Shown here piece by piece: positions 13,479 to 52,299 of a DNA stretch of 64,000 nt. The notes under the pieces are model-generated. The model was not told the DNA's origin, did not search any database, and was given only the letters and a program-made list of their open reading frames with translations. How positions within the stretch are numbered: the stretch's first letter is position 1; each line of letters begins with the position of its first letter. Made by a program: the position numbers and the translations under genes. The DNA comes from Pyrinomonadaceae bacterium (lineage in GTDB: Bacteria > Acidobacteriota > Blastocatellia > Pyrinomonadales > Pyrinomonadaceae), in assembly GCA_050174305.1 (NCBI GenBank), contig JBFXJZ010000009.1, forward strand, positions 34,148 to 98,147. Direction: 5' to 3'.

Positions 13479-13489
13479 GCAATTACGAT

Positions 13490-15505: not shown

Positions 15506-15510
15506 AATAG

Positions 15511-17031: not shown

Positions 17032-17179
17032 GATTAGGCATATACTACATCATATTTAAGCCTTCTCCATAAATCGTGTTTGAGCATTTCGGCAGGTTTA
17101 GGCAAGAACTTGACACGAATGCATCTAGTTTCTGGCCGAGAGAAGAGCGAGAATTAAATCCTCAAAAAGGAGAATAATT

Positions 17180-17932: not shown

Positions 17933-18154
17933 TCCGGCTGGACAGCCGACCAGACTTTATCTCGCCGGCACCTTCGAAGCAATGCTGTCCAATGGGACAT
18001 ACCGCTAGTCAACTACGCTGGCGTTGTTGAGAAGGTGTCGGTGCCGACTAGTGTCAGGACGGGGAGACGCAAACAAAGCGGTAGGCCGACCGCACATGGT
18101 GAACTTGCGGTGTGACGGGCCGGATCGCAAAAATTCCGCCCCGAGATCAGTAAA

Positions 18155-20407: not shown

Positions 20408-20488
20408 GACTTACCCAATCCTCCTCTCGGACTTACCGAGCTATGAAAGGGCAAATAATGTGCCGAAACAATAAGACATGGAGCCGAA

Positions 20489-37521: not shown

Positions 37522-37689
37522 ATGGAAGAAATTGACGCAAAAAAAACTGAGAAATTTGTCAAAGAAGTCATGATGACTGAGCGACGATATGGAACCGACC
37601 AGAAGAATCAGAAGTCGAATCGCCAAAGCGATATCCGAGACTGTCTTGAAAAGTTTGTTGTCAAGGAATTAAGCGATGAAGATAAATAG
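37522..37689 (+). CDS. Possible 55-aa leader ORF overlapping the ATPase start
   Basis: Hand-translated as MEEIDAKKTEKFVKEVMMTERRYGTDQKNQKSNRQSDIRDCLEKFVVKELSDEDK. It ends at TAG 37687-37689, 14 nt into the next gene. It is below the ORF-track length cutoff and I saw no clear RBS. Confidence 0.25.
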   Translation: MEEIDAKKTEKFVKEVMMTERRYGTDQKNQKSNRQSDIRDCLEKFVVKELSDEDK

Positions 37690-39691
37690 AATCGAGTTAG
37701 AAAACTTTCGACAATTTTACGGGAAGCAGGAACTCGTTTTCGCGACGGACCCTGAAAAAAACGTAACACTTATCCATGCCGAAAACGGCTACGGCAAAAC
37801 AACTCTGCTAAACGCGATTCTATGGACGTTCTTCAATAAAACTACCACAAAGTTTGAACAGCCCGACAAGATCCTCAACTTTGAAGCCGAATCAGAAGGC
37901 ACAACATTTGCGTCTGTTAGTGTGGAATTTCAGACCCAAAATGAAACATACATCGTCAATCGAAACTTTAGTAGTCGAGCTGATGACACTAGTTTTACGG
38001 CCTTCCGGGTCGAAAGCAGTGGGGCTCTCAGCCCCCATCCTGCGCCAAAGACGCTTATCGAATCGATCGTTCCACCAGAGATGGCAAAGTACTTTTTCTT
38101 CGATGGTGAGTCTGCCGAGGCATTCTCATCGGCGACCAATCATCAGGCGGTCGGTGATGCCATTCGGAACATCCTTGGAGTTGCCCTTGCGAATACTGCA
38201 ATCAACGACCTGAAAGACATCAGAAAATCCGTGGACAGAGAATTAGGTCAACTTCAAGGGGACGAGAAGCTTAAAGCGATTGAAGACGAGCTGTCCAAAA
38301 AGATCGAGCTACTTGAACAAGCTCTTGAATACAAAAAGAATTTCAAAAGCGATATTGCTACTTTCCGATCCCACCGGGACCAAATAGTCTCAGAACTTCG
38401 CGGTTTGGAAGGTAGCCGGCTCATTCAGGAACAACGTGATGACAAGGAAAAAGACTTGGCGGTGTTGAAGGGCGACATCGAGACGACGAAGGATGAAGCG
38501 ATGAGATGGGTCGGTGAACGATCGACTGCCCTAGTGAGCCGAAAGCTAACAACGGAAACTCTAGATTTCGTTGACGAAGCAAAACTAAAAGGACGAATAC
38601 CAAGTCCCTATAATGAGGACGTTGTTAAGGATTTGCTTGAAGCAGAAAGTTGTATTTGTGGACGTGGCCTTAAATCCGGCACGGAGGAATGGAAAGCCGT
38701 TGCCAGACTACTTGTCGACGCCGCAAGCGCGGAAGTCATTGATCGCGCATTACGAGCAAGAAGCCGAATAAGGTTCCTAAGGGAGCAGGCGACCGAAGCA
38801 CCTTCGGGACTTCAGTCGATTCAGAATCGGCTTTCCAAGATGGTTGCAAAACGTGCCGAGTTGGAACAGGTAATCGACGATCTAGGACAACAAATTCAAA
38901 ATCTCCCTCTCGAAGATATTGTTGCCAAAGAACGAGCACGGCGCGACTTGGACTTCAAGATTGAGAAAGAGGTTCGCAAACTTGGCGAAATGGATGCGGG
39001 CATTCGCAAGCTCGAAGCTGAAAAGCTGTCACTCGAAAAGGCCCTGGAGGGAGCCGCACGGTCCAACAAGCAGGCGCTCAAACTTCTGACTCGTCGCAGA
39101 TTGCTTGAAAGCTCGGTAAAATTCCTAGAGGAGCTTTTGAAACAATATGAGACTCAGGCTCGCGAAAAGATAGAGGCTCAGGTGAATAAGATTCTCGATC
39201 GCGTCGCCCACCGCGAATACAAATGCAAAATTAATAGTGATTTTTCGATAGAACTGATTTACGTGGGACGGTCCACACCCAAAAGTTCTGGTGAGAATCA
39301 ACTTTTAAGCTTAGTTTTTATTGCATCTCTGGTGAAATTTGCCGCAGAGCGAGTAGATGATGAGGACTTGGTTCTTAAGCCGGGCACAATAGCACCGTTG
39401 GTTTTGGATTCTCCTTTTGGCCAACTGGATGAATCCTACCGCGAAAGTACCGCATCGTGGATGCCGAATTTAGTAGAACAATTGGTGCTACTTGTATCCA
39501 CAACTCAAGGTACGGAAGAGGTGGTTTCTACCCTTAAGGGATCGATCGGAGCCGAGTATATGCTTGTCTCTGAGAATGCGGGTCCCCGAAACGAACGGAA
39601 ACCAACGGTTTTGGTTCATAACGGCGAGGCTCATACCACTTCGTTGTACTCCCAACCAAAGGCTTTGACCAGAATCGTGAGGCTTAATTAA
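37676..39691 (+). CDS. DndD-like SMC/ABC-type ATPase (restriction-side paralog; PbeA-like)
   Basis: MKINRIELENFRQF...AENGYGKTTLLNAI (Walker A), a long coiled-coil middle, then a C-terminal GENQLLSLVF signature and PLVLDSPFGQLD (Walker B/D-loop). Confidence 0.8.
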   Translation: MKINRIELENFRQFYGKQELVFATDPEKNVTLIHAENGYGKTTLLNAILWTFFNKTTTKFEQPDKILNFEAESEGTTFASVSVEFQTQNETYIVNRNFSSRADDTSFTAFRVESSGALSPHPAPKTLIESIVPPEMAKYFFFDGESAEAFSSATNHQAVGDAIRNILGVALANTAINDLKDIRKSVDRELGQLQGDEKLKAIEDELSKKIELLEQALEYKKNFKSDIATFRSHRDQIVSELRGLEGSRLIQEQRDDKEKDLAVLKGDIETTKDEAMRWVGERSTALVSRKLTTETLDFVDEAKLKGRIPSPYNEDVVKDLLEAESCICGRGLKSGTEEWKAVARLLVDAASAEVIDRALRARSRIRFLREQATEAPSGLQSIQNRLSKMVAKRAELEQVIDDLGQQIQNLPLEDIVAKERARRDLDFKIEKEVRKLGEMDAGIRKLEAEKLSLEKALEGAARSNKQALKLLTRRRLLESSVKFLEELLKQYETQAREKIEAQVNKILDRVAHREYKCKINSDFSIELIYVGRSTPKSSGENQLLSLVFIASLVKFAAERVDDEDLVLKPGTIAPLVLDSPFGQLDESYRESTASWMPNLVEQLVLLVSTTQGTEEVVSTLKGSIGAEYMLVSENAGPRNERKPTVLVHNGEAHTTSLYSQPKALTRIVRLN

Positions 39692-39692
39692 T

Positions 39693-40151
39693 ATGCGTGG
39701 AATAAAAGCTAGCAACACACATGAGGAGATGATTCGTCACCTAACGCACCCAGTTACAGGAAAGCCTGTATTTGATTCCATGAGAAGTCTAATCTGCTTC
39801 GCGGCGGTGCTGGGCTTTGAATACGGGAAAAAAGCTTCGTTGGGTCGCCAGCAGTTCGAAGCAGTTGACGGCCGCATTTTCGAGAATAGTGACCAAGCGA
39901 TTGATCTCTTATATCTGATAGCTCTCGCTCACGAAAAAGACGCTGATATTCTTCGCGTCGAAAACGAGGAGCAGATGGTGGCGATTTTTGAGCAATTCGC
40001 TCAGGGCGGCCTCGAGATACTTGCTGGGTGGCTTCGCGAGAAGCCGGAAGATACGGTTGGTGATCGGGCCATCATAAGCGCATTCGGTAAGTATGGGTTT
40101 CTGACCGCAGGAGATGACTCCGAAGTAACGCTGTCTCAAATATCTTTCTAA
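39693..40151 (+). CDS. Small dnd-associated protein (152 aa)
   Basis: It starts 1 nt after the ATPase stop. There is no catalytic motif. Its size and position match the small 'dnd system-associated' proteins found between the ATPase and the helicase in such loci; this is from recollection and was not verified. Confidence 0.45.
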   Translation: MRGIKASNTHEEMIRHLTHPVTGKPVFDSMRSLICFAAVLGFEYGKKASLGRQQFEAVDGRIFENSDQAIDLLYLIALAHEKDADILRVENEEQMVAIFEQFAQGGLEILAGWLREKPEDTVGDRAIISAFGKYGFLTAGDDSEVTLSQISF

Positions 40152-40166
40152 CCACTACGAAGTTGA

Positions 40167-42305
40167 ATGCTCAGAAATTTCCCATTTAAACAGGTTTACA
40201 GGTCCGATACTGACCACATCCTACGAGATTTTTACATTCCAGCGCTGACCGAATCTACAAAATACGATAGGGCCGTAGGGTATTTTTCGGCTAGCATGCT
40301 CTCCTACGCCGCACAAGGCTTATCGGCCTTCGTTGAAAATGACGGACACATGCGTTTGATTGTGGGCGGCGAGTTAGACGCCTCAGAGGTTCAGGCACTC
40401 CTCGATGGGTATGAGATGCGTGACCTTATCAGTAGGCTCGGCTCACAATTCGTTCAAGTAATCGAGAGCGTTGATGACGCAATTTTCAACCGGCGACTGG
40501 AGCTCCTCTCATGGTTAGTTGCGTGTGGAAGACTCGACATAAAAGTTGCCTTAAAGACCCAAGGGATGTATCACGAGAAAATCGGCGTATTTACAGATGC
40601 CCAGGGTGACAAGATAGTATTTCAAGGATCTGCTAACGAAACACGCAATGCTCTATTACCTGACTTTAACTTTGAGTCGATTACTGTGTTTCCTAACTGG
40701 AACAGCCAGTTGAGCAGTTACTGCGAACCTTTTATAACGGGTTTTGAAGATCTATGGGAAAACAAGACTCCCAACACCGTAACAATCGATCTTCCGGAAG
40801 CAGCGAAAGCGAAATTAATTGGCATTGCAAAGAAAACGACCAAAATATTAACGCCATCAATCGAACTGGATCTCTGGCGGGATTCTCAGTTTTCCAAGCC
40901 AGAAGAAGTTCATGAACCGTCGGGTCCGGTAATTCCCCCGACCCTCTATGGCGAGGAATTTGAATTGAAACGACATCAAAGAGAGGCTTTAGAGGCATGG
41001 CGCGCCAAGGGACTAACAGGTGTGATGGCACTGGCAACGGGAGCCGGGAAGACGATCACTTCGATTTACGGAGCAGTGAAAATTTATGAAGCTGAGCAAC
41101 GCCTTTTTATGTGCGTTGCTGTTCCGTATCAGAATCTAGCGGATCAGTGGGTTGCCGTTCTCAGGAAGTTTAATATTTTCCCCATCTCCTGTTACATGAG
41201 CTCGGCCAACTGGGTTGGGGAGCTTAGTGACGCGATTTCGTTTTATCAAACGGGAGCGACAAATTTCGTTTGCGTGGTCGTCGTGAATCGAACGCTACAA
41301 TCAGAACGATTTCAGAACTTGCTTAAACAGGTAAACGGAAGCCATCTTTTATGGATAGGTGATGAATGCCATCATCACGGCAGTTCGGGTCTCAATTCTA
41401 TGCTACCGCAACAGGCTGCGATGCGGCTCGGTCTGTCCGCGACTCCCGAACACTATTTCAATGAGGATGCTACGGATCGAATACTGGATTACTACGGACA
41501 GATTGTTGCCCGCTACACTCTTGCCGAAGCATTGGAAGAAGGTGTGCTCACCCCTTACAAATACTATGTAGAGCTAGTGGATCTCACGGCTGAAGAGGCC
41601 GAGGAATATCAAGGATTAAGTGAACAGATTTCCCGACTTGCAGCAATGAACCAGAATTCTGGAGCTACAGACGGAAACGACGCTATGAAGATTCTTTTAT
41701 TTCGGCGTTCACGCTTGATAGGTAAGGCGAAGAATAAATTCAAAGCGCTAAAAGATCTGCTCGCGAATTCATCGCCAAAACCACTGACGCTTTTCTATTG
41801 CGGCGAAGGAAATACCGAGGATGAAGATTCGGGAGACACCAGCAGACAGGTGGAACTAGTAACTTCGATCCTGCGTGACCTTAACTGGAAGAGTTCTCTT
41901 TTCACTAGTCAAGAGACAACTCATGCCCGTGTCGATTTATTGGACTGTTTTCGGTTAGGCTTGATCGATGCTCTGGTTGCTATGAGATGTCTCGATGAAG
42001 GTATCGATATTCCGGCGTGTAAAACGGCTTACATTTTGGCGAGCAGCCGGAACCCGAAGCAGTTTATTCAGCGTCGCGGCCGCATTTTGCGCAGATCTCC
42101 GGGCAAGGAATTTGCAGAAATCTATGATTTTGTTGTAAAAATGCCCGATGGATCTTCTGAAACTAATGATTATGAGCGAAAGCTAATTTCGGCGGAACTT
42201 GAAAGGGTCGCCGAATTTGCAAAACTGTCATTGAATCACGCAGAAAGCATTAGGGTCTTAGCACCTATTCTTCGAGTTCACAATCTATCGCATTTGATTG
42301 CTTAA
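40167..42305 (+). CDS. PLD-family nuclease fused to an SF2 (DEAH) helicase
   Basis: An HKD-like motif YHEKIGVFTD...GSANET; helicase motif I ALATGAGKT, motif II GDECHH and motif VI QRRGRILR. Confidence 0.85.
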   Translation: MLRNFPFKQVYRSDTDHILRDFYIPALTESTKYDRAVGYFSASMLSYAAQGLSAFVENDGHMRLIVGGELDASEVQALLDGYEMRDLISRLGSQFVQVIESVDDAIFNRRLELLSWLVACGRLDIKVALKTQGMYHEKIGVFTDAQGDKIVFQGSANETRNALLPDFNFESITVFPNWNSQLSSYCEPFITGFEDLWENKTPNTVTIDLPEAAKAKLIGIAKKTTKILTPSIELDLWRDSQFSKPEEVHEPSGPVIPPTLYGEEFELKRHQREALEAWRAKGLTGVMALATGAGKTITSIYGAVKIYEAEQRLFMCVAVPYQNLADQWVAVLRKFNIFPISCYMSSANWVGELSDAISFYQTGATNFVCVVVVNRTLQSERFQNLLKQVNGSHLLWIGDECHHHGSSGLNSMLPQQAAMRLGLSATPEHYFNEDATDRILDYYGQIVARYTLAEALEEGVLTPYKYYVELVDLTAEEAEEYQGLSEQISRLAAMNQNSGATDGNDAMKILLFRRSRLIGKAKNKFKALKDLLANSSPKPLTLFYCGEGNTEDEDSGDTSRQVELVTSILRDLNWKSSLFTSQETTHARVDLLDCFRLGLIDALVAMRCLDEGIDIPACKTAYILASSRNPKQFIQRRGRILRRSPGKEFAEIYDFVVKMPDGSSETNDYERKLISAELERVAEFAKLSLNHAESIRVLAPILRVHNLSHLIA

Positions 42306-42311
42306 AACACT

Positions 42312-44132
42312 ATGAACATCAAACCCGTTTACGCGACTGTGGGCGAACTCTTCCGTTCGCGTCCGATGTTCTATGTTCCAAAGTATCAAAGGGCGTACGC
42401 ATGGGAAGCGGATCCGATTAGCGATTTCATAAAAGACCTCAATAGCTGCATCGATAAACGAAAAGCCGGGCATGACGTGAAACACTTCCTAGGCGGGATA
42501 CTAAGCGTTGAGCATGATGTAGCGGGAGTTATTAACCAACACAAATACGAAATAATCGACGGTCAACAACGGATCGCAACTTTGTGTTTGCTTGCCGCCT
42601 CCCTAATTGCGACATATAAAGAATTAGAAATAGACGCTGGGAACGCCGGGCAAACCAGCGAACAGTTGATTCTAGGGCAGCGCATTCAAGATTTGACTCA
42701 TCGGTTTTTTGAGTTCCAACAGGAAGTCAACAACAATCTCGAAACTGCCGACGTTCTCACGTTGTCGAAGGCAGATGATTCGTTTTACAGACTCTTGATC
42801 CGAAGAATGCCGTGCGATTCGAGTTTGAGGGATTCTCATAAACGGCTTGAAAAGGCTTATTCATCTCTGGATGAAAATATCAAAGCGATTGTTAATCAGC
42901 AGTTTACGCTCAACGAAAAAATCAGTGAATTGAAAATAGTGGAAACGGTGTTGCTTGGTGATTTCACCGTCATTCATATGGTGGTCGATAAAAGGAAAGA
43001 TGCGTACACTCTTTTTCAAGTAATTAACGATCGAGGCGCAAATCTTACCGACGGTGACTTATTAAGGGCGAAAACGTTGGAGATTCTAGAGAACTTCGAC
43101 AACGAGCAAAACGCTGTAGAGGCTTTGTGGGACAAGATTTTGGTCGATCCCCCTTCAGAAACGAACAACTATTTGAATTGGATTTATGAATCTTACCAAG
43201 GAACAAGAACTGCCCAAAATGTCTTGTTTGACATGTTCCTTGATAAGTTTTTCCCTCAGCATCAACAATACAATTTGGGAACTTTCACCGTTGCTGATGC
43301 CCAAGCTCTTCATTCCACTGTAGAAAGGCTTTATAAGGATATTTTGCATTGCAGGAAGTTGGTTCAAGGACAATGGCCATTTGAACGCAGACGGCCCATC
43401 ACGGGATGGGATATTACTAGGTTAAACCTTCTTCTAGTGGATCTGGATCATTCGTTATCGATTCCGTTGTTTCTGGCAGCGTCAAACCTTACTCACACTA
43501 AGTTCTCAGAAATTGTACAGATGGTAGAGCGTACGTTTTTTAGATATAAACTAATCGCTAACCAACACGCCGCATCTCTTAAGGCGATTTATCTTCAGGA
43601 ATCGCTAGCGATCAGAACGAATCCTGGAACGTATGACGTTAACCATTTAAAGACAAAACTCGATGTGCTTATTAATACTAAAGCTGGAGATGCGGTGTTT
43701 CAAAGCGGGCTGGCAGCGCTCCAGTATCAAGAGTCGGGAGGTAATAAACCCCTTAAGTATTTCCTAATGAGCATTGAATACTATTATCAATGGTACAAAG
43801 CGGGTGCGGTTGGGATTCCTAAATGTTCGGACAAGAGTAGAGTGTATGATTTCACGGGAACATCAATTGAGCATGTCTATCCCAAAAGGGCTGCTCCAAC
43901 CGACGCCACCTTGGAGCCTTTAAAGAATACCCTCGGCAATTTAACAATTATGGATCCGAAACCCAACTCGACAAGTGGCAATGATGATTTTGCTACTAAG
44001 AAGCCAGTTTATTCTGCATCTTCAGTCGAATTGACCCAAGAGATTGGAGCAAAGGCAACCTGGACAACAATTGAAATCTCGGCACACCAAGCTTTGCTGA
44101 TCGGTATAGCTCTAAAGGTATTTCGTCCCTGA
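42312..44132 (+). CDS. DUF262-DUF1524 protein (GmrSD / SspE-like architecture)
   Basis: N-terminal YVPKYQRAYAWE and IDGQQRI (DUF262, ParB-like NTPase fold). C-terminal SIEHVYPK ... GNLTIM (DUF1524, His-Me finger nuclease). Confidence 0.85.
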   Translation: MNIKPVYATVGELFRSRPMFYVPKYQRAYAWEADPISDFIKDLNSCIDKRKAGHDVKHFLGGILSVEHDVAGVINQHKYEIIDGQQRIATLCLLAASLIATYKELEIDAGNAGQTSEQLILGQRIQDLTHRFFEFQQEVNNNLETADVLTLSKADDSFYRLLIRRMPCDSSLRDSHKRLEKAYSSLDENIKAIVNQQFTLNEKISELKIVETVLLGDFTVIHMVVDKRKDAYTLFQVINDRGANLTDGDLLRAKTLEILENFDNEQNAVEALWDKILVDPPSETNNYLNWIYESYQGTRTAQNVLFDMFLDKFFPQHQQYNLGTFTVADAQALHSTVERLYKDILHCRKLVQGQWPFERRRPITGWDITRLNLLLVDLDHSLSIPLFLAASNLTHTKFSEIVQMVERTFFRYKLIANQHAASLKAIYLQESLAIRTNPGTYDVNHLKTKLDVLINTKAGDAVFQSGLAALQYQESGGNKPLKYFLMSIEYYYQWYKAGAVGIPKCSDKSRVYDFTGTSIEHVYPKRAAPTDATLEPLKNTLGNLTIMDPKPNSTSGNDDFATKKPVYSASSVELTQEIGAKATWTTIEISAHQALLIGIALKVFRP

Positions 44133-44146
44133 ATTGCAGCCTCTAT

Positions 44147-44530
44147 TCAAGCACATAATCTTAAAAGGTCAGCCACATTTTCGATTTGTTTATTGCTCGC
44201 TTTGCTTGCCAAATATCCGATCCCGCGGTGCAGATGAAGTTTGAATTGTTGGTGCAATGTGTCTTCCGTGCGGGGAAAACCATCCTCATGACACCGGACT
44301 TTAAGTAAGGCGAGGTAGATTTCGTTATATTCACCGCCAAATACCTTCCATGTCATTTCAACAGAGCTGTCGGTAACTATCTTTGCGGGTGCTGGAATTG
44401 TGGGTTCCGCCAACGAAAGGCAGAACGCCCAGCGACAAAGGACGTTCCAGTTCGAAATACCAGTGACACGTTTCAGCCGGACGAGCTGATCTTTCGCCTG
44501 TTGAGAAAGTCGAATATGCTCTATAGCCAT
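44147..44530 (-). CDS. dndE: DNA sulfur modification protein DndE
   Basis: 127 aa, IRLSQQAKDQLVRLKRVTGISNWNVLCRWAFCLSL. It is the last gene of the dndBCDE order. Confidence 0.75.
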   Translation of the reverse strand: MAIEHIRLSQQAKDQLVRLKRVTGISNWNVLCRWAFCLSLAEPTIPAPAKIVTDSSVEMTWKVFGGEYNEIYLALLKVRCHEDGFPRTEDTLHQQFKLHLHRGIGYLASKASNKQIENVADLLRLCA

Positions 44531-44536
44531 AATTGT

Positions 44537-46582
44537 TTACAGGGCTCCTTTGGTCACGAATAAGGAATCACGCTCAACCCCGGACGCAAGATCGTCGTCT
44601 TTTCCAAAGTAACCACCTCTGATCGTAGCTACCCCCATTTCATCATCGTAATCCAACGTGTAACTGCGCCCTATCGAGGGTTTCATTTGTTCGTACAACC
44701 CTAAATCAATTTCCTGATCGGTTGATAAAAGGATTACCTGGTGACTGGCGTGAGGAAAGTACCGTTCAATAAGATTTTGTCGATGGCTTGCATCGAGCCT
44801 GCCAAGAGGCGTATCAATTATTATTGGGAGTGGGCGTTCCGAAAACCTCGCAAGTCCCCAAAGCAACGCGACCGCCAATAATTGTCTCTCACCAGCAGAT
44901 AACCTTTCAGCAGGAACAACTTGATCCTCTGCATTTCGTAGCTCCAAAGAAAAATCCGATGAATTAATACATAGGGCCTCAATTAGCGTTGTTTTCCGCA
45001 ATAATTGTCGATAACTGTCTAATACCAAACTCTCGATCTGCTTCAGTTGCTTTTGAAGGAGTATTTCCCGGAATTTTTCTATAGCCTCTCTTACCTTTTT
45101 AGAGTGCAATAGTGAACGATCTACATCGTCGCGATCAAGTTCTGACCCGAAGACCTCCTCTATTTCGCGTTGTAACAAGCGTTCCTTCAACTGCCGTTCA
45201 CGGGCGAGTCTGCCAATCTCTAATTCGAGTGCAGATACATCTATTCGGGAGTTCTCAAGATTCGATCGCACTTTATCGATCTCTTCTGAGAGCCCCCCTA
45301 ATCTTTCTGCGTCTGGAATACTCGCGAGTTTGCGGTCGATGTCAAGAATGCGTTCTTGGCGAAGGTGAAATTGTCTTGAAAGACCTTTTACTGGTTTTGC
45401 AATGTCGCTAAAAAGATGGCCGTCGTTTAATGAGTCGAGGTGTCGTATAGCGGATTCGCTCAGTTCTACATACGAATCCGCAACTAGACTAGCGTCTCTT
45501 TCTTTGCGATCCGTTTGAAGAAACTCCTTAACTATATCCAAAAGATTAATGTCCGGCTGTTTTTTCCTAAGAACATTTATGAGATCCTTATCACGCTTCG
45601 CTAATACAGAACGAAGTATTCGATTCTCCTTTGAAAGCTCTTCTTGTTTTGATTGGGCATGAGTTTTTTCGATAAGCGAGCGGACGAGTGTCAGAGGGGC
45701 AGCCCCAGCCGCAAGTTCAAATAACTTAGCTTTGATGGTCTGTAATTCGCGCTTGAGGTCATCTCGGTCATCGCCGAGCGATTGCTTTGATCCAATCAGA
45801 TCGCCGCCCTCGCTCTTATATTTTTCGAGCAACCAATGAAGTTCTCGTTCAAGACGATCAATTTCTTTCGTTTGTTTCTCAGCTCTTTTACTTACATACT
45901 CTAAACGAGCCTCTTCGATTCTCTCGCACTCTTCTTTGAGGCTATCTATTCGCTTTCGATCGGCAACAGTTCCAAGATTAATTTTTTGTCTGGAATCATA
46001 AACGGCTAAATCGGATTTAAGGCGTTCTACTAAGTCTAGTCCTAAGAGGGCGCTTATCGCTTTACCCACAGACTGTCTCGAATTTTCAAGATCCGCGAAT
46101 TCTTCAATTTTTTCTCCATCAAAAAAGAATAAGTGCGACAGACTTGCAGGGAAAATTTCGTCAACAGTTTCATTCCAGTTCTCGCTTAAGAGACGGTCGT
46201 GGGAGCCATTCACGCTTACCGAGACTTTTTCGGTCAGTTTTTCCTTACGTACATACCACGAGCGGTTGATGCGATAAGTTTTCTCTTCACCTACCGCGTG
46301 CTGTGTAATTTGAATCTCTACTGACGCGCCTTGCTCTCCGTCAACGTGGTAGTTGATTGAGCGTTTCAAGTACTCGTCGTACGAAAGGCTTCCCCGATTT
46401 GAACATCGCGCACGTCGACCGTAGAGGGACAATTGAATCGCGTCGAGAAATGTGGTTTTCCCACCGCCATTTAACCCTCCAACGAGTATTATTGGCTTTT
46501 CAGGACGATGAGGTGTCAGGTCAATCTGTTGATACCCCTTATACAATCCGAAGTTGCGAAGTGCTAGTTTTTCTATTATCAC
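44537..46582 (-). CDS. dndD: DNA sulfur modification protein DndD (SMC-like ATPase)
   Basis: MIIEKLALRNFGLYKG...GLNGGGKTTFLDAIQLSLYG; a coiled coil; SAGERQLLAVALLWGL and PIIIDTPLGRLD. It makes an ATGA overlap with dndC. Confidence 0.9.
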   Translation of the reverse strand: MIIEKLALRNFGLYKGYQQIDLTPHRPEKPIILVGGLNGGGKTTFLDAIQLSLYGRRARCSNRGSLSYDEYLKRSINYHVDGEQGASVEIQITQHAVGEEKTYRINRSWYVRKEKLTEKVSVSVNGSHDRLLSENWNETVDEIFPASLSHLFFFDGEKIEEFADLENSRQSVGKAISALLGLDLVERLKSDLAVYDSRQKINLGTVADRKRIDSLKEECERIEEARLEYVSKRAEKQTKEIDRLERELHWLLEKYKSEGGDLIGSKQSLGDDRDDLKRELQTIKAKLFELAAGAAPLTLVRSLIEKTHAQSKQEELSKENRILRSVLAKRDKDLINVLRKKQPDINLLDIVKEFLQTDRKERDASLVADSYVELSESAIRHLDSLNDGHLFSDIAKPVKGLSRQFHLRQERILDIDRKLASIPDAERLGGLSEEIDKVRSNLENSRIDVSALELEIGRLARERQLKERLLQREIEEVFGSELDRDDVDRSLLHSKKVREAIEKFREILLQKQLKQIESLVLDSYRQLLRKTTLIEALCINSSDFSLELRNAEDQVVPAERLSAGERQLLAVALLWGLARFSERPLPIIIDTPLGRLDASHRQNLIERYFPHASHQVILLSTDQEIDLGLYEQMKPSIGRSYTLDYDDEMGVATIRGGYFGKDDDLASGVERDSLFVTKGAL

Positions 46583-48120
46583 GGCTTCTTTCGTTGTTCG
46601 GCCAGAGGTCTAATTTCATGAGTGTCACGGATCGAGGCGAATATTTGTTCCGTCTGCTCTTCCTTAATATCTCGCCGTTTAATAGCTCTATCAAGAGCGT
46701 CGTCCGCGTTTTCATAAAAGCTTCGCTTGAAAGCTTTGTCGATTGCCTCATATAGTCCCGCACGTTTCGTGGCAGATTTAAAGCGCCGTTCAACGTCAAT
46801 TAATTCTCTTGTCAACTCATACAAAATACGGTCTCCTCCACAGCTTTCTTTCAACAATTCCATTTCAGCGGCCGCAAACGGTAGATTGTCATCAATATTT
46901 GAATCGGGAAACTCCGTTCCTGTGATTTCAAGATATATAGTCGGAAGCAAATCCTCGATCTCATGCTTGTCAATTACCCAAATTCTACGAATTTCTCTTA
47001 ACTCAGGCATCGTAATAAGTTCAATGTCAGAAACTGACTTTGGCCCGTTTTCGCGTATCCATTTCTGAACAGACAGAAGCTTTCTAAGCCACCTCTCTCT
47101 TGCTTCCTGCGTGTATGGACCAGGAACATTGGTGTCATTATGAAGAGTCACGGAGCCGTTGGTTCTTCGGAAGTCGCGCAAATCTCTATCGTTGCGATTT
47201 CCACTTTCATCTCTTGGATCCAATTCGTTACGAAGGTCGAGAAGGGGTCTCATCCAATGCTTCTCGTCGTCATTCTGGACCATCGCCCCCATAGACTTAT
47301 CTTTATCAACTACGGTGCAAACCCAGCAACCAAATCGACTATCGCCACAACTCGGCGTGGTAGTATCAACCACCAGCGGGCACTCGCCGTCCGAGGAAGC
47401 CCCTTTATACATCGTCAAAAGATCCTTGTTGGTAAAACCCCAAGGATTTTGGACTTGCATCAAGAAGAGCCAAACGTCGTCATTCGACCAATTCTCAATC
47501 GGAGCATAAACCAACGAATTAATGAGGTTCGGTCTAATGCTAAGCTTGTCCCGTGACTGACGTTTCGCCATCTTGTCCATTGACTGGGCCCGAGTGGAAC
47601 TTTCAGCCCTACGGGTGCCCAATACCACTATTGCTTCACCATTTTCCTTGACAACTTTTTTTATAAATTCGTTTGACGGCTTAATCTTTAAGCGCTCTGT
47701 GCACCAACGAAACTTGGTCTTTGGCGCTGGGTACCCCTTGCCGATCAAATTCACCCAAAACGTGTCCGAAGTTTTTGGAGTCAACCGATGCGGGTAGATT
47801 GGTAAGGCGTCTTCAGTAGCTTTGGCCTGTATGTGTTGCAGGGACTTTCCAACCCATGACGCAACTATCGGATTTTCAACCAACGTATCGGTGGAGATAA
47901 CATGAACAGGTTTATGGAGTTCAGCTTTGCTAAGCTTTGAAAGAGCCGTCCAAATTAGCTGGAGTACCGCCGTAGAGTCTTTTCCTCCGCTGTACCCAAC
48001 GACCCACGGTATTTCGTCAGCAAGATAGATATTAGTTATTTCGGCCAGTAGTTCGTCTACCGACTTTCTAAATCCTAGAGCATTAAATGCCGACGTCGAG
48101 TTATTTGAACTATCTGCCAT
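46579..48120 (-). CDS. dndC: DNA sulfur modification protein DndC (PP-loop ATP pyrophosphatase)
   Basis: PP-loop VVGYSGGKDST and a Cys cluster (PSCGDSRFGCWVC). The start is taken at ATG 48120, which overlaps the dndB stop; the ORF could extend to 48147. Confidence 0.9.
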   Translation of the reverse strand: MADSSNNSTSAFNALGFRKSVDELLAEITNIYLADEIPWVVGYSGGKDSTAVLQLIWTALSKLSKAELHKPVHVISTDTLVENPIVASWVGKSLQHIQAKATEDALPIYPHRLTPKTSDTFWVNLIGKGYPAPKTKFRWCTERLKIKPSNEFIKKVVKENGEAIVVLGTRRAESSTRAQSMDKMAKRQSRDKLSIRPNLINSLVYAPIENWSNDDVWLFLMQVQNPWGFTNKDLLTMYKGASSDGECPLVVDTTTPSCGDSRFGCWVCTVVDKDKSMGAMVQNDDEKHWMRPLLDLRNELDPRDESGNRNDRDLRDFRRTNGSVTLHNDTNVPGPYTQEARERWLRKLLSVQKWIRENGPKSVSDIELITMPELREIRRIWVIDKHEIEDLLPTIYLEITGTEFPDSNIDDNLPFAAAEMELLKESCGGDRILYELTRELIDVERRFKSATKRAGLYEAIDKAFKRSFYENADDALDRAIKRRDIKEEQTEQIFASIRDTHEIRPLAEQRKKP

Positions 48121-49216
48121 GTTCCCCCTGTAGGAATGCGTACTCACGTTTTTGCTCTTCGACCGAGAGAGCCAATCCCATTTCTTTCTTTATTACGTTC
48201 ACTGTCAAAGTCACGCTCGCTTCTGATTTGGAAATACGACCTCCGATCATGGCACGTCCCTCCCAAAGTCTTGTGTTCGAGCGAGACCAATCGATTTTCC
48301 TTAGTTTAGATAGCTTTTTTTTCCACTCTCGTGGCTTTTCGCGGAGAAGAATATGGCCCACTTTTCCTATTGCTTGTAATGCGATTCCATGCGAGTGAAT
48401 ATATCTAGTTCGGATTTCACTTGCGGGTATCTTTCGCTCCAATACCTGATGCCACTCCGGGAAACTTTGTGCTACCTCGTACCAAAATGGGACGGCTACT
48501 TGCGATTTTAGATCCAGACTACTTTCGTCATTTGGTGAAAACATTGCACATGTTGCGGTATAGATCGCACTCAATGTGAATAACTTTCGAGAACGCAATG
48601 ACAACGTACTTTTCTCCATATCTACTACGTCTCTAAACAATGGGGTTTTTAGTGCAATTAATTTAGCCAGTTTTGCCATTTGATCACGATGATCATATAA
48701 GACGCCGATCGATTTCGAAGGGCGAATAGCATACCGATTCAAATCAGCAAACATTTGTTGGCATCGATCTAGTCCCCTGTCTACAAAAAAAACCACCGCA
48801 ATACTTTCGTCGCCAATCTCAGGATGTTCTTGTATTGCCATCTCAATCGCAGCCCTTCTATGTTGACCATCATTAATAATGAAGCGCGCCGACATGGAGA
48901 CTGACAGCTTACCGATTTGCTTATCGCTTTTCCCATTCTCGGAAGTCCCGAAGGATTCGAATGCTACATCCCCGTCAATTGAAGCTGTAATAGCAGAAAA
49001 GGTGTAATCATCCGGATTATCAATGATGTAGTTGGCCATTTCGGGTAGCCGGGTCCGGTTCAACCTCCTTTGCGCTCGAATCTCAGGAGCTAATTCTTCT
49101 TCATCAAAAATGAAGATTTTGGGTATTAACCTCAGGGGACACATTGAGACAAAATATTCCCTTTTTGCTTGGATGCCCCTAATGGCTGGGAAAATATATT
49201 CAAAGGATGACGGCAT
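48110..49216 (-). CDS. dndB: DndB (DGQHR-domain regulator of dnd)
   Basis: FIINDGQHRRAAIEMA (DGQHR motif); 368 aa; first gene of the minus-strand dnd operon. Confidence 0.85.
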   Translation of the reverse strand: MPSSFEYIFPAIRGIQAKREYFVSMCPLRLIPKIFIFDEEELAPEIRAQRRLNRTRLPEMANYIIDNPDDYTFSAITASIDGDVAFESFGTSENGKSDKQIGKLSVSMSARFIINDGQHRRAAIEMAIQEHPEIGDESIAVVFFVDRGLDRCQQMFADLNRYAIRPSKSIGVLYDHRDQMAKLAKLIALKTPLFRDVVDMEKSTLSLRSRKLFTLSAIYTATCAMFSPNDESSLDLKSQVAVPFWYEVAQSFPEWHQVLERKIPASEIRTRYIHSHGIALQAIGKVGHILLREKPREWKKKLSKLRKIDWSRSNTRLWEGRAMIGGRISKSEASVTLTVNVIKKEMGLALSVEEQKREYAFLQGEHGR

Positions 49217-49272
49217 AAACAGTCGCTTCCGTTTCTATCACGGGATTGAAGGTTAATTGTATTTATATGGTC

Positions 49273-49306
49273 TGTATGTTATTTTGTCAATAGAATATAA
49301 CATACA
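49273..49306. promoter_or_regulatory. Perfect 10-bp inverted repeat in the dndA-dndB divergent region (candidate operator)
   Basis: TGTATGTTAT-N14-ATAACATACA, read directly from the sequence. It is centred in the 132-bp intergenic region. Confidence 0.35.
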
Positions 49307-49348
49307 TTTTGCTTTTTGATACACACATGTTTTGCGGGTTGATTTGTA

Positions 49349-50476
49349 ATGATTTATCTAGACTGTAATGCTACGACACCCATTGAACCGGCGGTCGTGG
49401 ATTTAGTTTTGCATTTCCTCACCGACGAATTTGGCAATGCCGGGAGTCGGACTCACGAGTTTGGCTTACGAGCTCAACGAGCCGTAGAGAAAGCACGAGA
49501 ACAAGTTGCGAAGGTAGTTACCTGCGAACCGTCGGAAGTCATATTGACCAGCGGAGCAACTGAGAGTAACAATCTTGCGATTCTCGGACTCGAAAAATTT
49601 GCTAATGAGACGGGCAAACGCCACATTATCAGTACCGAAATTGAACACAAGGCGGTGCTCGAACCCCTTGAAATGTTATCGAAAAGAGGGTTTGATATTA
49701 CTCTCGTCGCTCCAGATTTAGACGGGAGCGTGTCCGCTGAGAATATTAAGGCCCGGCTGAGGGAAGATACGATTCTTGTTTCCGTAATGCATGTTAACAA
49801 CGAAACCGGTGTTATTCAGCCGATCACCGACATAGTTAATATCTTGGACGGGCACCCGGCATTTTTGCACGTCGATGCTGCTCAGGGTTTCGGTAAAGAC
49901 ATTCCGACATTACAAAGTCGTCGCATCGATCTAATCAGCATTAGCGGTCACAAGATATATGCTCCTAAAGGAATCGGTGCCTTAATCGTCCGTAGACGGG
50001 GCTATGATCGTCTTCCGATACAACCTCTTATGGTTGGTGGTGGGCAAGAACAAGGCCTACGTCCAGGAACTCTCCCGGTCCATCTTGCCGTTGGTCTTGG
50101 ACTAGCTTCTGAATTGGCAATTAAGAACTTTAGTCAACGTCAAGCTGATTGTAAGAAGTTTAGAGACCGCTTATTATGCGAATTGCTTCCTTTGAATCCC
50201 GTGATAAATGGCGATCTGAAGATGTCTTTACCTAACGTGGTGAATTTGTCTTTTCTTGGGATTGATTCTGAGGCTTTAATGCTCGCGTTAAAGAACGAAA
50301 TTGCGATTTCCAATGGCTCGGCGTGCACTGCTCACCTGTATAAACCGAGTCATGTACTAAAAGCGATGGGTTTAGACGACGATTCTATCCAGACTGCGGT
50401 GCGTCTTTCGTGGTGTCACCTGACAGAGGAACCAGATTGGGTCCGGGTTACGAAAATCGTCAGTTCTCTATCGTAG
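49349..50476 (+). CDS. dndA: Cysteine desulfurase DndA (IscS/NifS family)
   Basis: IYLDCNATTP, SGATESNN, PLP-lysine context SGHKIYAPKGIGAL and catalytic Cys SNGSACTA. It is divergent from dndB. Confidence 0.9.
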   Translation: MIYLDCNATTPIEPAVVDLVLHFLTDEFGNAGSRTHEFGLRAQRAVEKAREQVAKVVTCEPSEVILTSGATESNNLAILGLEKFANETGKRHIISTEIEHKAVLEPLEMLSKRGFDITLVAPDLDGSVSAENIKARLREDTILVSVMHVNNETGVIQPITDIVNILDGHPAFLHVDAAQGFGKDIPTLQSRRIDLISISGHKIYAPKGIGALIVRRRGYDRLPIQPLMVGGGQEQGLRPGTLPVHLAVGLGLASELAIKNFSQRQADCKKFRDRLLCELLPLNPVINGDLKMSLPNVVNLSFLGIDSEALMLALKNEIAISNGSACTAHLYKPSHVLKAMGLDDDSIQTAVRLSWCHLTEEPDWVRVTKIVSSLS

Positions 50477-50631: not shown

Positions 50632-51696
50632 CTAACTGTCAAGTCGCTTTACTGCCTCAAGCATAAGCTCCGCGTCGGTTTCCGCGTAGATGTTTGTAAT
50701 GCTCATGTCCGAATGGGCAAAGAGATTCTGGACTATGAGGGGATTTGTATTTCTACGAATTAATTCGCTGGCAAAGTAGGTTCTTAAGTCGTGGAAATGA
50801 TAGTTTTCTTCTCTTGTGCCGTCTGGCTTGTTGATCTTGGCTCTTATGAGAGCCGGATGCCAGCGTTTTCGGAAATCGACAATTGGAAATGGAAGCTGTT
50901 TGTCGGCGATTAGGTCCCGTAAAACCGATGCCGCGGTTGCATTGATCGGTACGGATCGCGGAGGTCGTCCCTTCGAACCAATTACCCATACCCTTTGATT
51001 CTCAAAATCGATCACATCCTCGTTCAAAGCCAATAACTGGCCGCGGCGCAATGGCATGTTAACGGCCAATTGGACAAGCCTGTATAGCAGCTGATCGGAT
51101 TCGAGCTCCTTCCACAACGCTTTCTTCTGCTCGGTCGTAAGTAGGCGCTTTCGTGGTGGCGGCTCTGGAAGGGACTTTACATACTGCATCGGATTGCGAT
51201 CAAGAACGTCTTCCTCACAAGCGAGACTGAAGATCTTCGACAAAGTCGACATGATCCTATTGATGGAGGAAGGAGAGATCGAACTTTTCTTTTTTCGCTG
51301 GTTTTTCCCGTACTGAAGTTTGTCCCGGCAATCGCGACAATCCTGTGGCGTGATGGTGTGCAGAGGTTGATCCTTTAGGTTTTTCAAAAGGAGTTTTATG
51401 TAAAGATTCTTCGCCCCCTTATTGACGTTGTTTTGCTCTACATATTTTCGATAGGTTGTTTCTACGAAGTCTCCAAAAGTTAAAGTCGTATCCGCTTGTC
51501 CGAAAGATCTGTCGAATAGCCGCTTGACCAGTTGGCGCTCGGCGAGTTCAGCTTCTTCCTTAGTACGGGCTGTCGGAATAACCTGATGAATAGTCTTATG
51601 CCCTTTAACTCGTCTGTATACCCACCAGCGAGCTGCTGCATACGCCGGATGCTTAGCGTTTATCCGCTTACCGTTATACTTCTTAAAAACTGACAT
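50632..51696 (-). CDS. Tyrosine site-specific integrase
   Basis: The C-terminal catalytic region has RRGQLLAL (Arg I), HFHDLRTYF (H-x-x-R) and AHSDMSITNIYA (His...Tyr). Confidence 0.9.
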   Translation of the reverse strand: MSVFKKYNGKRINAKHPAYAAARWWVYRRVKGHKTIHQVIPTARTKEEAELAERQLVKRLFDRSFGQADTTLTFGDFVETTYRKYVEQNNVNKGAKNLYIKLLLKNLKDQPLHTITPQDCRDCRDKLQYGKNQRKKKSSISPSSINRIMSTLSKIFSLACEEDVLDRNPMQYVKSLPEPPPRKRLLTTEQKKALWKELESDQLLYRLVQLAVNMPLRRGQLLALNEDVIDFENQRVWVIGSKGRPPRSVPINATAASVLRDLIADKQLPFPIVDFRKRWHPALIRAKINKPDGTREENYHFHDLRTYFASELIRRNTNPLIVQNLFAHSDMSITNIYAETDAELMLEAVKRLDS

Positions 51697-51700
51697 ACGC

Positions 51701-51955
51701 TTAGTAATTCGCTAACCAGGCATCCACCTCAGTTCTATTAAAAGTTGGCCGGCCCACTCCGTGGAACGGTAAACCATTTTTTCGCATCCATCGATTGATC
51801 GTTGCACTAGATTTCTTCAGATATTTTGCGACTTCGGACTTCGTCATAATCTGGGGCGGCTGAGATGAGTGAATTGCTTTCTCGATTGCTCCCGCGACAG
51901 AGGTATCGATCAAACGAATCAGCTCAGCTTTTTCTATCGTGATAATTTCAACCAT
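51701..51955 (-). CDS. Excisionase / MerR-like HTH DNA-binding protein
   Basis: 84 aa, MTKSEVAKYLKKSSATINRWMRKNGLPF. It lies immediately upstream of the integrase. Confidence 0.7.
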   Translation of the reverse strand: MVEIITIEKAELIRLIDTSVAGAIEKAIHSSQPPQIMTKSEVAKYLKKSSATINRWMRKNGLPFHGVGRPTFNRTEVDAWLANY

Positions 51956-52222: not shown

Positions 52223-52299
52223 TGGTCGGGACGACAAGATTTGAACTTGCGACCTCTCGCACCCCAAGCGAACGCGCTACCAGACTGCGCTACGTCCCG
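52223..52299 (-). tRNA. tRNA-Pro (anticodon GGG), canonical
   Basis: Reverse complement: CGGGACG TA GCGC AGTCTGGTA GCGC G TTCGC TTGGGGT GCGAG AGGTC GCAAG TTCAAAT CTTGT CGTCCCG A CCA. All four stems pair, and C1:G72 is typical of Pro. Confidence 0.9.

What the first reader, a model, noticed from the sequence alone, without database searches (positions are those of the whole stretch)
37522..50476. Phosphorothioation island: dndBCDE/dndA paired with a four-gene non-DndFGH partner module on an ICE
dndB, dndC, dndD and dndE (minus strand) and divergent dndA are clear from their motifs. The canonical DndFGH restriction genes are absent; there is no ~1,500-aa DndH-like ORF. Instead a tightly packed plus-strand operon converges on dndE. 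It encodes a second DndD-like ATPase (671 aa), a 152-aa protein, a PLD-nuclease/DEAH-helicase fusion (712 aa) and a DUF262-DUF1524 protein (606 aa). From my recollection this resembles the PbeABCD-type partner described with DndCDEA in archaea. I cannot verify the domain-by-domain match here. A bacterial copy with dndB, carried by an ICE, would still be noteworthy.
Basis: partly seen in the sequence, partly recalled or inferred. Interest (0 to 1): 0.7.

Follow-up and report, generated by a model that had tools for sequence, protein, structure and literature searches.

The report
Dnd phosphorothioation island with Pbe and DndI
This is a complete DNA sulfur-marking (phosphorothioate) gene set joined to two already described anti-phage effector modules, Pbe and DndI, carried on a mobile element of a soil Acidobacterium; it is real, but it is a new example of known systems, not a new kind.

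Summary
dndB, dndC, dndD and dndE (minus strand) and divergent dndA all score above NCBI's curated cut-offs. A tightly packed plus-strand operon converges on dndE, and no DndFGH is present in the window.

- 671 aa = PbeC
- 152 aa = PbeD
- 712 aa = PbeA

The fourth gene (606 aa) is not a Pbe gene. It is a full-length homologue of DndI (PDB 9JFL, E 4e-84) and keeps DndI's phosphorothioate-sensing, NTPase and HNH residues.

The module is therefore five genes: pbeB-pbeC-pbeD-pbeA-dndI.

Bacterial Pbe modules next to dndB-containing clusters are already reported in hundreds of taxa. The mobile-element setting is supported: integrase beside tRNA-Pro, coupling protein and relaxase.

The only mildly new point is that dndI sits in or beside the pbe operon. 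This recurs in Acidobacteriota, Desulfobacterota and Cyanobacteria, and I found no paper describing it.

Verdict: new member of a known kind, modest interest.

The parts
37522..37689 (+). pbeB-like small protein gene (55 aa), overlapping the pbeC start by 14 nt
   Evidence: An ORF of 54-63 aa is called at the same position in independent assemblies. Homologues at 36-65% identity lie directly upstream of pbeC in L003-L009, L047 and L068, across several phyla. HHalign against the small ORFs lying between pbeA and pbeC in distant loci gives E 1.2e-5, and 7.6e-8 for a mainly gammaproteobacterial subset. It has no hit to Pfam Sp-CxC or to PADLOC.
37676..39691 (+). pbeC: CxC-type ABC ATPase with coiled-coil insert (671 aa)
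   Evidence: PADLOC PbeC 1.5e-204 over the full length, against DndD at only 7.4e-45. TIGR03185 DndD scores 129.5, below its cut-off of 245.85. Pfam finds AAA_23 and SMC_N. Walker A is at residues 37-43 and the C326-I-C328 hook motif is present. The central CxC occurs in 79 of 79 PbeC-type and 0 of 40 DndD-type proteins.
39693..40151 (+). pbeD: 'dnd system-associated protein 4', the DndE-like partner of PbeC (152 aa)
   Evidence: TIGR04062 dnd_assoc_4 scores 70.1 bits, just below its cut-off of 74.25. Precomputed Pfam PF27807 hits this exact protein and all 43 homologues. The AlphaFold model has pLDDT 87 and pTM 0.82, with two strand-helix-helix units followed by C-terminal helices. The best PDB fold matches are DndE 4LRV and 5WTU, but weakly: E 0.7, TM 0.55-0.60 normalised to the target. 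A sequence-profile comparison with DndE is not significant, E 0.28.
40167..42305 (+). pbeA: HKD (PLD-type) nuclease domain fused to an SF2 helicase (712 aa)
   Evidence: PADLOC PbeA 8.3e-253. TIGR04095 'DNA phosphorothioation system restriction enzyme' scores 496 bits as a domain model (cut-off 600). Pfam finds ResIII, Helicase_C and PLDc_2 at 24.8 bits (cut-off 27). H136, K138, D144, N157, GAGKT 292-296, DECH 399-402 and QRRGRILR 635-642 are invariant or nearly so in 25 homologues of 53-83% identity.
42312..44132 (+). dndI homologue: DUF262 (ParB-like NTPase) plus DUF1524 (HNH nickase), 606 aa
   Evidence: PDB 9JFL (Salmonella DndI) matches at E 4.1e-84 over residues 1-604. PADLOC 'Orf5' 1.9e-228. 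Pfam finds GmrSD_N and GmrSD_C. P23/Y25/Q26, D83GQQR87, H521, N543 and N552 (equivalent to DndI N541) are all present. Their roles are described in PMC11662687.
44147..44530 (-). dndE
   Evidence: TIGR03184 scores 130.3 against a cut-off of 71.85. Pfam DndE 8.7e-44.
44537..46582 (-). dndD (canonical, no CxC hook)
   Evidence: TIGR03185 scores 567.1 against a cut-off of 245.85. It has no central CxC.
46579..48147 (-). dndC (PAPS-reductase-like sulfurtransferase; gene callers start it 9 codons later)
   Evidence: TIGR03183 scores 663.1 against a cut-off of 290.4. The SGGKDS PP-loop and a CGDSRFGCWVC cysteine cluster are present.
48110..49216 (-). dndB (DGQHR/ParB-like regulator)
   Evidence: TIGR03233 scores 537.3 against a cut-off of 328. 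Pfam DndB 3.1e-137.
49349..50476 (+). dndA (cysteine desulfurase), divergent from dndB
   Evidence: TIGR03235 scores 500 against a cut-off of 480.
50632..51955 (-). tyrosine integrase (50632-51696) and AlpA-type HTH_17 protein (51701-51955) at the end of the element
   Evidence: Pfam Phage_integrase 4.3e-21 and HTH_17 4.2e-11.
52223..52299 (-). tRNA-Pro(GGG), the likely integration site; its 3' end faces the integrase
   Evidence: ARAGORN and the sequence itself. No second copy of the tRNA 3' end was found in the window.
299..22858 (.). conjugation genes of the same element
   Evidence: Pfam hits: TraG-like P-loop ATPase at 3504-6482(-), lytic transglycosylase at 7078-8052(+), type IV coupling protein at 13490-15505(+) and MobL-type relaxase at 20489-22858(-).

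Best explanation
The region is a three-part phosphorothioate (PT) defence island carried as cargo at the integrase end of an integrative conjugative element in a Pyrinomonadaceae (Acidobacteriota) genome.

Part 1, modification: DndA, DndC, DndD and DndE put sulfur into the host DNA backbone at a short consensus motif, and DndB limits the level.

Part 2, Pbe: the operon pbeB-pbeC-pbeD-pbeA is the known Pbe, or CxC-ABC-ATPase, system.
- The PbeC-PbeD pair, a paralogue of DndD-DndE, scans DNA.
- PbeA supplies ATP-driven translocation and an HKD nuclease domain.
- The small PbeB is a required cofactor or regulator.

Part 3, DndI: the last gene of the same operon is a DndI-type enzyme.
- Its N-terminal ParB-like NTPase senses PT through a Tyr-containing hydrophobic patch.
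- Its C-terminal HNH domain nicks DNA that lacks PT.

Both effectors read the same PT mark as 'self' and act on unmarked incoming phage or plasmid DNA, giving layered protection to whichever host receives the element.

Shown here: gene identities, intact catalytic and sensor motifs, operon layout, recurrent synteny and the mobile-element context.

Inferred from published work on homologues: PT modification, PT dependence of both effectors and anti-phage activity.
For: Identities:
- Five Dnd equivalog models score above their cut-offs.
- PADLOC gives PbeC 1.5e-204, PbeA 8.3e-253 and Orf5 1.9e-228.
- DndI crystal structure sequence 9JFL matches at E 4.1e-84 over the full length, with P23/Y25/Q26, DGQQR and the HNH Asn conserved. 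The functional roles of those residues are given in PMC11662687.
- The CxC hook separates PbeC from DndD cleanly, 79 of 79 against 0 of 40.
- The PbeA HKD and helicase motifs are invariant in 25 homologues.
- PbeB is conserved in sequence and position across phyla and is profile-related to the small ORFs of A-B-C-D-ordered operons.

Linkage:
- Of 80 PbeA-anchored loci from GTDB species representatives, about half carry dnd modification genes within 10 kb.
- The same pbeBCDA-dndI layout converging on dndEDCB, with divergent dndA, recurs in L083/L084 (DndI 85% identical), the P0167 contig (66%) and L087 (62%).
- Pbe and DndI also sit together in other layouts in L088, L089 (Desulfofustis glycolicus) and L048 (Nodosilinea).

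Published function:
- PbeABCD with DndCDEA gives about 10^4-fold PT-dependent protection, and all four pbe genes are needed (PMC6459918).
- IscS-DndBCDE with DndI is a stand-alone PT-sensing defence (PMC11662687).

Mobile element. L083/L084 also carry a coupling protein, ParB and an integrase.
Against: - No experiment or modification data exist for this genome, so PT modification and defence are inferred only.
- PbeD's relation to DndE is weak by my tests: HHalign E 0.28 and Foldseek E 0.7.
- The window's PbeB does not match Pfam Sp-CxC.
- The closest species-representative locus, L003 (PbeA 74% identical), has the same layout without dndI. DndI is therefore dispensable for the Pbe module.
- Close DndI-family proteins in Microcystis and Oscillatoria have no dnd genes within 10 kb, and 320 of 553 pbeAC pairs lack nearby dndCD. 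Neither effector family is strictly tied to PT.
- The Pbe mechanism is disputed. One view is replication block without cleavage (PMC6459918); the other is HKD-mediated cleavage or suicide (PMC10853773).
- DndFGH could still lie elsewhere in the genome.
Confidence: 0.7

Rival explanations
1. Pbe and DndI form one integrated machine instead of two stacked effectors. DndI would be the PT sensor and nickase of a Pbe translocase complex, in the way that dndI is co-transcribed with dndFGH in Salmonella.
For: dndI starts 6 nt after the pbeA stop, on the same strand. Pbe and DndI sit adjacent in at least seven distinct loci from three phyla. DndI-family genes otherwise sit beside dndFGH (L090; PMC11662687). 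No PT-sensing component of Pbe has been identified (PMC6459918).
Against: DndI defends on its own with IscS-DndBCDE. Archaeal PbeABCD defends without any DndI. L003, and most of the 80 Pbe loci, have no DndI-like gene. In L088 dndI is on the dnd strand and converges on pbe, so co-transcription is not conserved.
Confidence: 0.15
2. The Pbe part acts independently of PT as an abortive-infection or suicide module released by a phage trigger, with PbeB as the inhibitor. Only DndI would be the PT-reading restriction partner of DndABCDE here.
For: This is the alternative model of PMC10853773. CxC systems often occur without dnd genes: 320 of 553, and many alphaproteobacterial loci show only PbeC-PbeD-PbeA. 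The HKD nuclease residues are invariant.
Against: In the only experimental system, Pbe protection was lost when PT was abolished and PT-modified virus escaped, with no toxicity in PT-less cells. In this clade the pbe operon is almost always next to dndBCDE (L003-L010, L047, L068).
Confidence: 0.1
3. The island is an inactive remnant, or DndFGH elsewhere in the genome is the real restriction partner.
For: Only 64 kb of a 179-kb contig of a metagenome-assembled genome could be inspected. Genomes with Pbe, Dnd and DndFGH together are reported.
Against: All ten ORFs are full length with intact motifs. The same proteins are found 100% identical in independent samples. Homologues are under evident conservation.
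Confidence: 0.05

Closest known systems
DndCDEA-PbeABCD of Haloterrigena jeotgali A29 (Xiong et al. 2019, PMC6459918); the same system is called the CxC-ABC-ATPase/DndE-anchored system by Aravind and colleagues (PMC10853773)
   Same: - PbeA has the PLD + ResIII + Helicase_C architecture.
- PbeC is an AAA_23 ATPase with a CxC hook.
- PbeD is 152 aa.
- A small protein gene lies directly upstream of pbeC.
- The module is physically linked to dndCDE and dndA.

   Different: - The gene order is B-C-D-A, not A-B-C-D. More than 30 of the closest loci share the B-C-D-A order.
- The host is bacterial and dndB is present; both features are already reported for many bacteria.
- A dndI gene is appended to the operon.
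- PbeB is 55 aa against 66 aa, and it does not match Pfam Sp-CxC.
IscS-DndBCDE-DndI of Salmonella enterica Cerro 87 (PMC11662687; PDB 9JFL)
   Same: - Full-length homology at E 4.1e-84.
- Same DUF262 + DUF1524 architecture.
- PT-sensing P23/Y25/Q26 are conserved.
- D83GQQR87 has identical numbering.
- The HNH Asn is conserved.
- It sits adjacent to dndBCDE.

   Different: - The Salmonella gene is co-transcribed with dndFGH. Here dndFGH is absent from the window and dndI follows pbeA.
- Here dndA is in the cluster, so a separate iscS is not needed.
SspABCD-SspE
   Same: SspE has the same DUF262 N-terminal PT-sensing NTPase and a DUF1524 nickase. The window protein gives weak N-terminal hits to SspE (PADLOC 1.5e-21; PDB 6JIV 2.7e-07).
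   Different: SspE is about 770 aa and works with single-strand PT made by SspABCD. No SspB, SspC or SspD is present here. The similarity is limited to roughly 100 N-terminal residues.
DndBCDE-DndFGH(-DndI) islands, for example locus L090
   Same: The same modification genes and a DndI-family gene converging on the dnd operon.
   Different: DndF, DndG and DndH (1694 aa in L090) are replaced here by the Pbe operon. No ORF above 992 aa exists in the window.

Membership tests
Dnd modification module (DndABCDE) | All five proteins match their curated equivalog models | tested here: met
   TIGR03235, TIGR03233, TIGR03183, TIGR03185 and TIGR03184 all score above their cut-offs.
Dnd modification module (DndABCDE) | PT dinucleotides present in host DNA | not testable with these tools
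   This needs LC-MS/MS or SMRT data.
PbeABCD / CxC-ABC-ATPase system | PbeA = HKD/PLD nuclease domain + ResIII + helicase C domain | tested here: met
   PADLOC PbeA 8.3e-253. Pfam finds ResIII, Helicase_C and PLDc_2 at 24.8 bits, just under its cut-off of 27. H136, K138 and N157 are invariant.
PbeABCD / CxC-ABC-ATPase system | PbeC = ABC ATPase with coiled coil and a CxC zinc hook, distinct from DndD | tested here: met
   PADLOC PbeC 1.5e-204. C326-I-C328 is present; the CxC occurs in 79 of 79 PbeC-type and 0 of 40 DndD-type proteins. The DndD equivalog model scores below its cut-off.
PbeABCD / CxC-ABC-ATPase system | PbeD = ~150-aa DndE-like (double ribbon-helix-helix) partner directly after PbeC | tested here: inconclusive
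   Position and length (152 aa) match. PF27807/TIGR04062 family membership holds, at 70.1 bits against a cut-off of 74.25. The model shows two strand-helix-helix units. The top PDB fold hits are DndE, but at E 0.7 and TM 0.55-0.60. HHalign against DndE gives E 0.28. There is no PADLOC hit.
PbeABCD / CxC-ABC-ATPase system | PbeB = small protein gene immediately upstream of pbeC | tested here: met
   The 55-aa ORF is conserved in 9 loci across phyla. HHalign against the small ORFs of A-B-C-D-ordered loci gives E 1.2e-5 and 7.6e-8. It does not hit Pfam Sp-CxC PF20304, although the L089 counterpart does.
PbeABCD / CxC-ABC-ATPase system | Conserved gene order pbeA-pbeB-pbeC-pbeD | tested here: not met
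   The order here is B-C-D-A. This is the standard order of the closest clade (L003-L037, L047, L068), while more distant loci keep A-B-C-D. It is a rearranged subtype, not grounds for exclusion.
PbeABCD / CxC-ABC-ATPase system | PT-dependent protection against viruses | not testable with these tools
   This needs phage or plasmid challenge with and without PT.
DndI | Full-length DUF262 + DUF1524 protein homologous to Salmonella DndI, with the PT-sensing Tyr patch, DGQQR and the HNH Asn | tested here: met
   9JFL matches at E 4.1e-84 over residues 1-604. P23/Y25/Q26, D83GQQR87 and N552 (equivalent to N541) are present.
DndI | Located next to dndBCDE | tested here: met
   Its stop codon is 14 nt from the dndE stop.
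DndFGH restriction module | DndF, DndG and a ~1500-aa DndH near dndBCDE | tested here: not met
   No ORF exceeds 992 aa. No DndF, DndG or DndH hit occurs among the 21 ORFs scanned against PADLOC. Only the 64-kb window was tested.
Integrative conjugative element | Integrase at a tRNA gene plus relaxase, coupling protein and mating-pair ATPase | tested here: met
Integrative conjugative element | Flanking att direct repeats | tested here: not met
   There is no second copy of the tRNA-Pro 3' end in the window. The far end probably lies beyond the window start.

The most novel reading that the evidence does not exclude
DndI-family nickases are a portable PT-sensing 'plug-in' that pairs with whichever translocase module accompanies dndBCDE: DndFGH in enterobacteria and Pbe in this clade. 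In the pbeBCDA-dndI operon, DndI would supply the PT sensing and DNA nicking that the archaeal Pbe system was reported to lack. The five genes would then act as one functional unit, not as two stacked systems.
Probability: 0.15. Interest if true: 0.5.

Novelty: new member of a known kind. Interest (0 to 1): 0.3.

Why it matters
The locus adds an Acidobacteriota, ICE-borne example to the known range of phosphorothioate defence islands. It also shows that such islands move as conjugative cargo.

The useful small point is the recurrent coupling of dndI to the pbe operon. It occurs in at least seven loci from three phyla, in parallel with the dndFGH-dndI coupling known from Salmonella. This gives a compact, clonable 13-kb locus for two questions:
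- Do Pbe and DndI cooperate or merely stack?
- Does Pbe cleave DNA at all? That point is disputed between two published accounts.

It does not open a new class of system.

Tried and rejected
- Megablast of the 13-kb region against all complete E. coli genomes found nothing. The ~50% GC had suggested an enterobacterium; the source is a Pyrinomonadaceae MAG.
- The search for att repeats of the tRNA-Pro 3' end found none in the window.
- PADLOC at E up to 10 gave nothing for PbeB and PbeD.
- PADLOC on ten neighbouring ORFs, including the CHAT/S9 operon, gave no defence hit.
- The sigma-70 promoter and terminator scan gave fewer sites than shuffled sequence and was uninformative.
- HHalign of PbeD against DndE profiles was not significant.
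- The window's flanking ICE genes have no counterparts in the related loci, so the island is not tied to one element.
- A literature search on 'DndI' or 'PbeA' as whole words was swamped by unrelated acronyms.
- 'Second DndD' for the 671-aa protein is rejected in favour of PbeC.
- 'Decayed remnant' is rejected because the ORFs and motifs are intact.

Full report
**Observation**

On the minus strand are dndE (44147-44530), dndD (44537-46582), dndC (46579-48147) and dndB (48110-49216). dndA (49349-50476) is divergent on the plus strand.

All five score above the curated cut-offs of NCBI's equivalog models, and all have matching Pfam and PADLOC hits.

Converging on dndE is a plus-strand operon of 671, 152, 712 and 606 codons. 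The gaps between these genes are 1, 15 and 6 nt, and the operon ends 14 nt from the dndE stop.

No ORF in the window is longer than 992 aa. None of the 21 ORFs scanned against PADLOC hits DndF, DndG or DndH.

**What the partner genes are**

- **671-aa protein = PbeC.** PADLOC gives PbeC 1.5e-204 over the full length, against DndD at only 7.4e-45. The DndD equivalog model scores 129.5, below its cut-off of 245.85. The protein carries C326-I-C328 in the middle of its coiled coil. A central CxC is present in 79 of 79 PbeC-type proteins and in 0 of 40 DndD-type proteins from the related loci. This is the 'CxC zinc hook' that PMC10853773 uses to define this ATPase clade.
- **712-aa protein = PbeA.** PADLOC gives 8.3e-253. 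It has the PLD + ResIII + Helicase_C architecture published for PbeA. The HKD residues (H136, K138, N157) and the helicase motifs are invariant in 25 homologues.
- **152-aa protein = PbeD.**
  - It belongs to the 'dnd system-associated protein 4' family: TIGR04062 at 70.1 bits against a cut-off of 74.25, and PF27807 in precomputed annotation.
  - It has exactly the published length of PbeD.
  - An AlphaFold model (pLDDT 87) shows two strand-helix-helix units plus C-terminal helices.
  - Its best PDB fold matches are DndE 4LRV and 5WTU, but only at E 0.7 and TM 0.55-0.60.
  - A profile-profile comparison with DndE was not significant.
  - The published claim that PbeD is a DndE cognate is therefore consistent with my data but not independently established by them.
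- **606-aa protein = a DndI homologue, not a Pbe protein.**
  - It aligns end to end with Salmonella DndI (PDB 9JFL, E 4.1e-84).
  - It hits PADLOC 'Orf5' at 1.9e-228.
  - It keeps the PT-sensing P23/Y25/Q26 patch, the D83GQQR87 NTPase motif and the HNH asparagine (N552, equivalent to DndI N541).
  - DndI with IscS-DndBCDE is a published stand-alone PT-sensing defence.

**The missing pbeB**

The finding's start coordinate, 37522, is the start of a 55-aa ORF that overlaps the pbeC start by 14 nt.

- It is called as a gene in independent assemblies.
- Homologues at 36-65% identity occupy the same position in Acidobacteriota, Alphaproteobacteria, Nitrospira, Planctomycetales, Gammaproteobacteria and Kiritimatiellae loci. 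They share a conserved core close to F-L-K-E-V-M-x-I-E-R-R-Y.
- A profile of this family matches the small ORFs that lie between pbeA and pbeC in distant loci at E 1.2e-5, and at 7.6e-8 against a mainly gammaproteobacterial subset.
- It does not match Pfam Sp-CxC, although the counterpart in L089 does. That fits the published description of this small protein as fast-evolving.

The module is therefore pbeB-pbeC-pbeD-pbeA-dndI.

**Source and setting**

The window is from contig JBFWUY010000007.1 of GCA_050247035.1, a Pyrinomonadaceae MAG.

Directly right of dndA lie a tyrosine integrase, an AlpA-type HTH protein and tRNA-Pro(GGG), whose 3' end faces the integrase. Further left are a relaxase, two SSBs, a type IV coupling protein, a TraG-like ATPase and a lytic transglycosylase.

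The 'ICE' label is therefore supported. No second att copy is in the window, however, so the far boundary is unknown.

**Comparative genomics**

PbeA has more than 2,278 homologues at E <= 1e-20. A scan of GTDB species representatives gave 80 loci. tblastn with the window's proteins showed four things.

1. There are two gene orders. The closest ~35 loci have B-C-D-A, and more distant loci have the archaeal A-B-C-D.
2. About half of the loci have dnd modification genes within 10 kb, and dndB is detected in 28 of them.
3. A DndI-like gene lies beside the system only in the window, in L048 (Nodosilinea) and in L068.
4. The nearest representative, L003 (PbeA 74% identical, same layout), has no dndI. 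There, about 60 nt separate the tblastn matches to pbeA and dndE.

Looking from the DndI side:

- The same five-gene operon converging on dndEDCB recurs in L083/L084 (85% identical; also on an element with a coupling protein, ParB and an integrase), in the P0167 contig (66%) and in L087 (62%).
- L088 has dndI on the dnd strand, converging on pbe.
- L089 (Desulfofustis glycolicus) has pbeA-B-C-D-dndI.
- L090 has the classical dndFGH-dndI layout plus an SBD-HNH gene.
- Microcystis and Oscillatoria homologues (57-61% identical) are solitary.

DndI-family genes thus accompany either DndFGH or Pbe beside dnd clusters, and can also stand alone.

**Mechanism**

Most likely (confidence 0.7), DndACDE writes PT on host DNA under DndB control. 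Two effectors, Pbe and DndI, then read PT as self and act on unmarked incoming DNA. This follows from experiments on homologues, not from data on this genome.

Rivals:
- DndI is an integral subunit of a Pbe machine (0.15).
- Pbe is a PT-independent suicide module (0.1).
- The island is inactive, or DndFGH elsewhere in the genome is the real partner (0.05).

**Novelty**

Every component has a published, experimentally studied homologue and strong matches in defence-system HMM sets.

Bacterial Pbe next to dnd clusters is documented at scale: 235 bacterial pbeAC near dndCD, including Enterobacter cloacae, and 936 bacterial taxa with tandem DndD and CxC systems. NCBI's TIGR04095 and TIGR04062 models already name these proteins as dnd-associated.

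The one feature I did not find described is dndI as the terminal gene of the pbe operon. The DndI paper mentions PbeABCD only in its introduction. The Aravind survey does not mention DndI or DUF1524. This is a recombination of known modules of the 'mix and match' kind already noted in the literature.

I rate it a new member of a known kind, interest 0.3.

Noticed in passing
window 54392-57026: Ten tRNA genes (Arg, Gln, Pro, Thr, Leu, Cys, His, Asp, Lys, Met) are packed into about 2.6 kb on the plus strand, just outside the element and next to tRNA-Pro(GGG). This is an unusually dense tRNA array.
   Followed up: no
window 30954-37365 (+): A five-gene operon lies directly upstream of pbeB: 231 aa, 303 aa, an S9 prolyl-oligopeptidase-family protein (659 aa), 82 aa and a TPR-CHAT (caspase-like) protein (860 aa). 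It matches no PADLOC model. It could be uncharacterised defence or other ICE cargo.
   Followed up: partly
window 28000-31000; 30359-30778 (-): This is the lowest-GC stretch of the window (0.42). It contains a 139-aa ORF that covers only the C-terminal part of a sigma-54 activator domain, so it is probably a gene fragment.
   Followed up: no
window 24914-25357 (-) and 27741-28142 (-): Two SSB paralogues lie on the element, with a 29-nt repeat at their 5' ends. An RNase H gene (24182-24835) lies beside them.
   Followed up: no
L085 (Microcystis aeruginosa) 10001-11821; L086 (Oscillatoria sp.) 10001-11815: DndI-family proteins 57-61% identical to the window's have no dnd, pbe or dndFGH gene within 10 kb. 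The family is therefore not always PT-linked locally.
   Followed up: partly
L083/L084 11872-13335; L087 13099-13941; L088 677-1462: Mrr_cat-domain nuclease genes ride along with the Dnd-Pbe-DndI islands in related loci. They lie either between dndI and dndE or after dndA, with a MarR regulator in L087 and L088. The window has no such gene.
   Followed up: no
L090 1669-12737: This is a classical island layout: putative dndF and dndG, dndH (1694 aa), a DndI homologue and a ScoMcrA-type SBD-HNH nuclease, converging on dndA-E-D-C-B. The same DndI clade therefore pairs with DndFGH elsewhere.
   Followed up: partly
L012-L021, L024, L028-L031, L051, L056, L057: Many alphaproteobacterial PbeC-PbeD-PbeA loci lack dndBCDE. 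Most of them have a gene giving a cysteine-desulfurase-like match (36-42% identity to DndA) about 5-9 kb downstream. The intervening genes were not examined; the literature suggests methylases may lie there.
   Followed up: no
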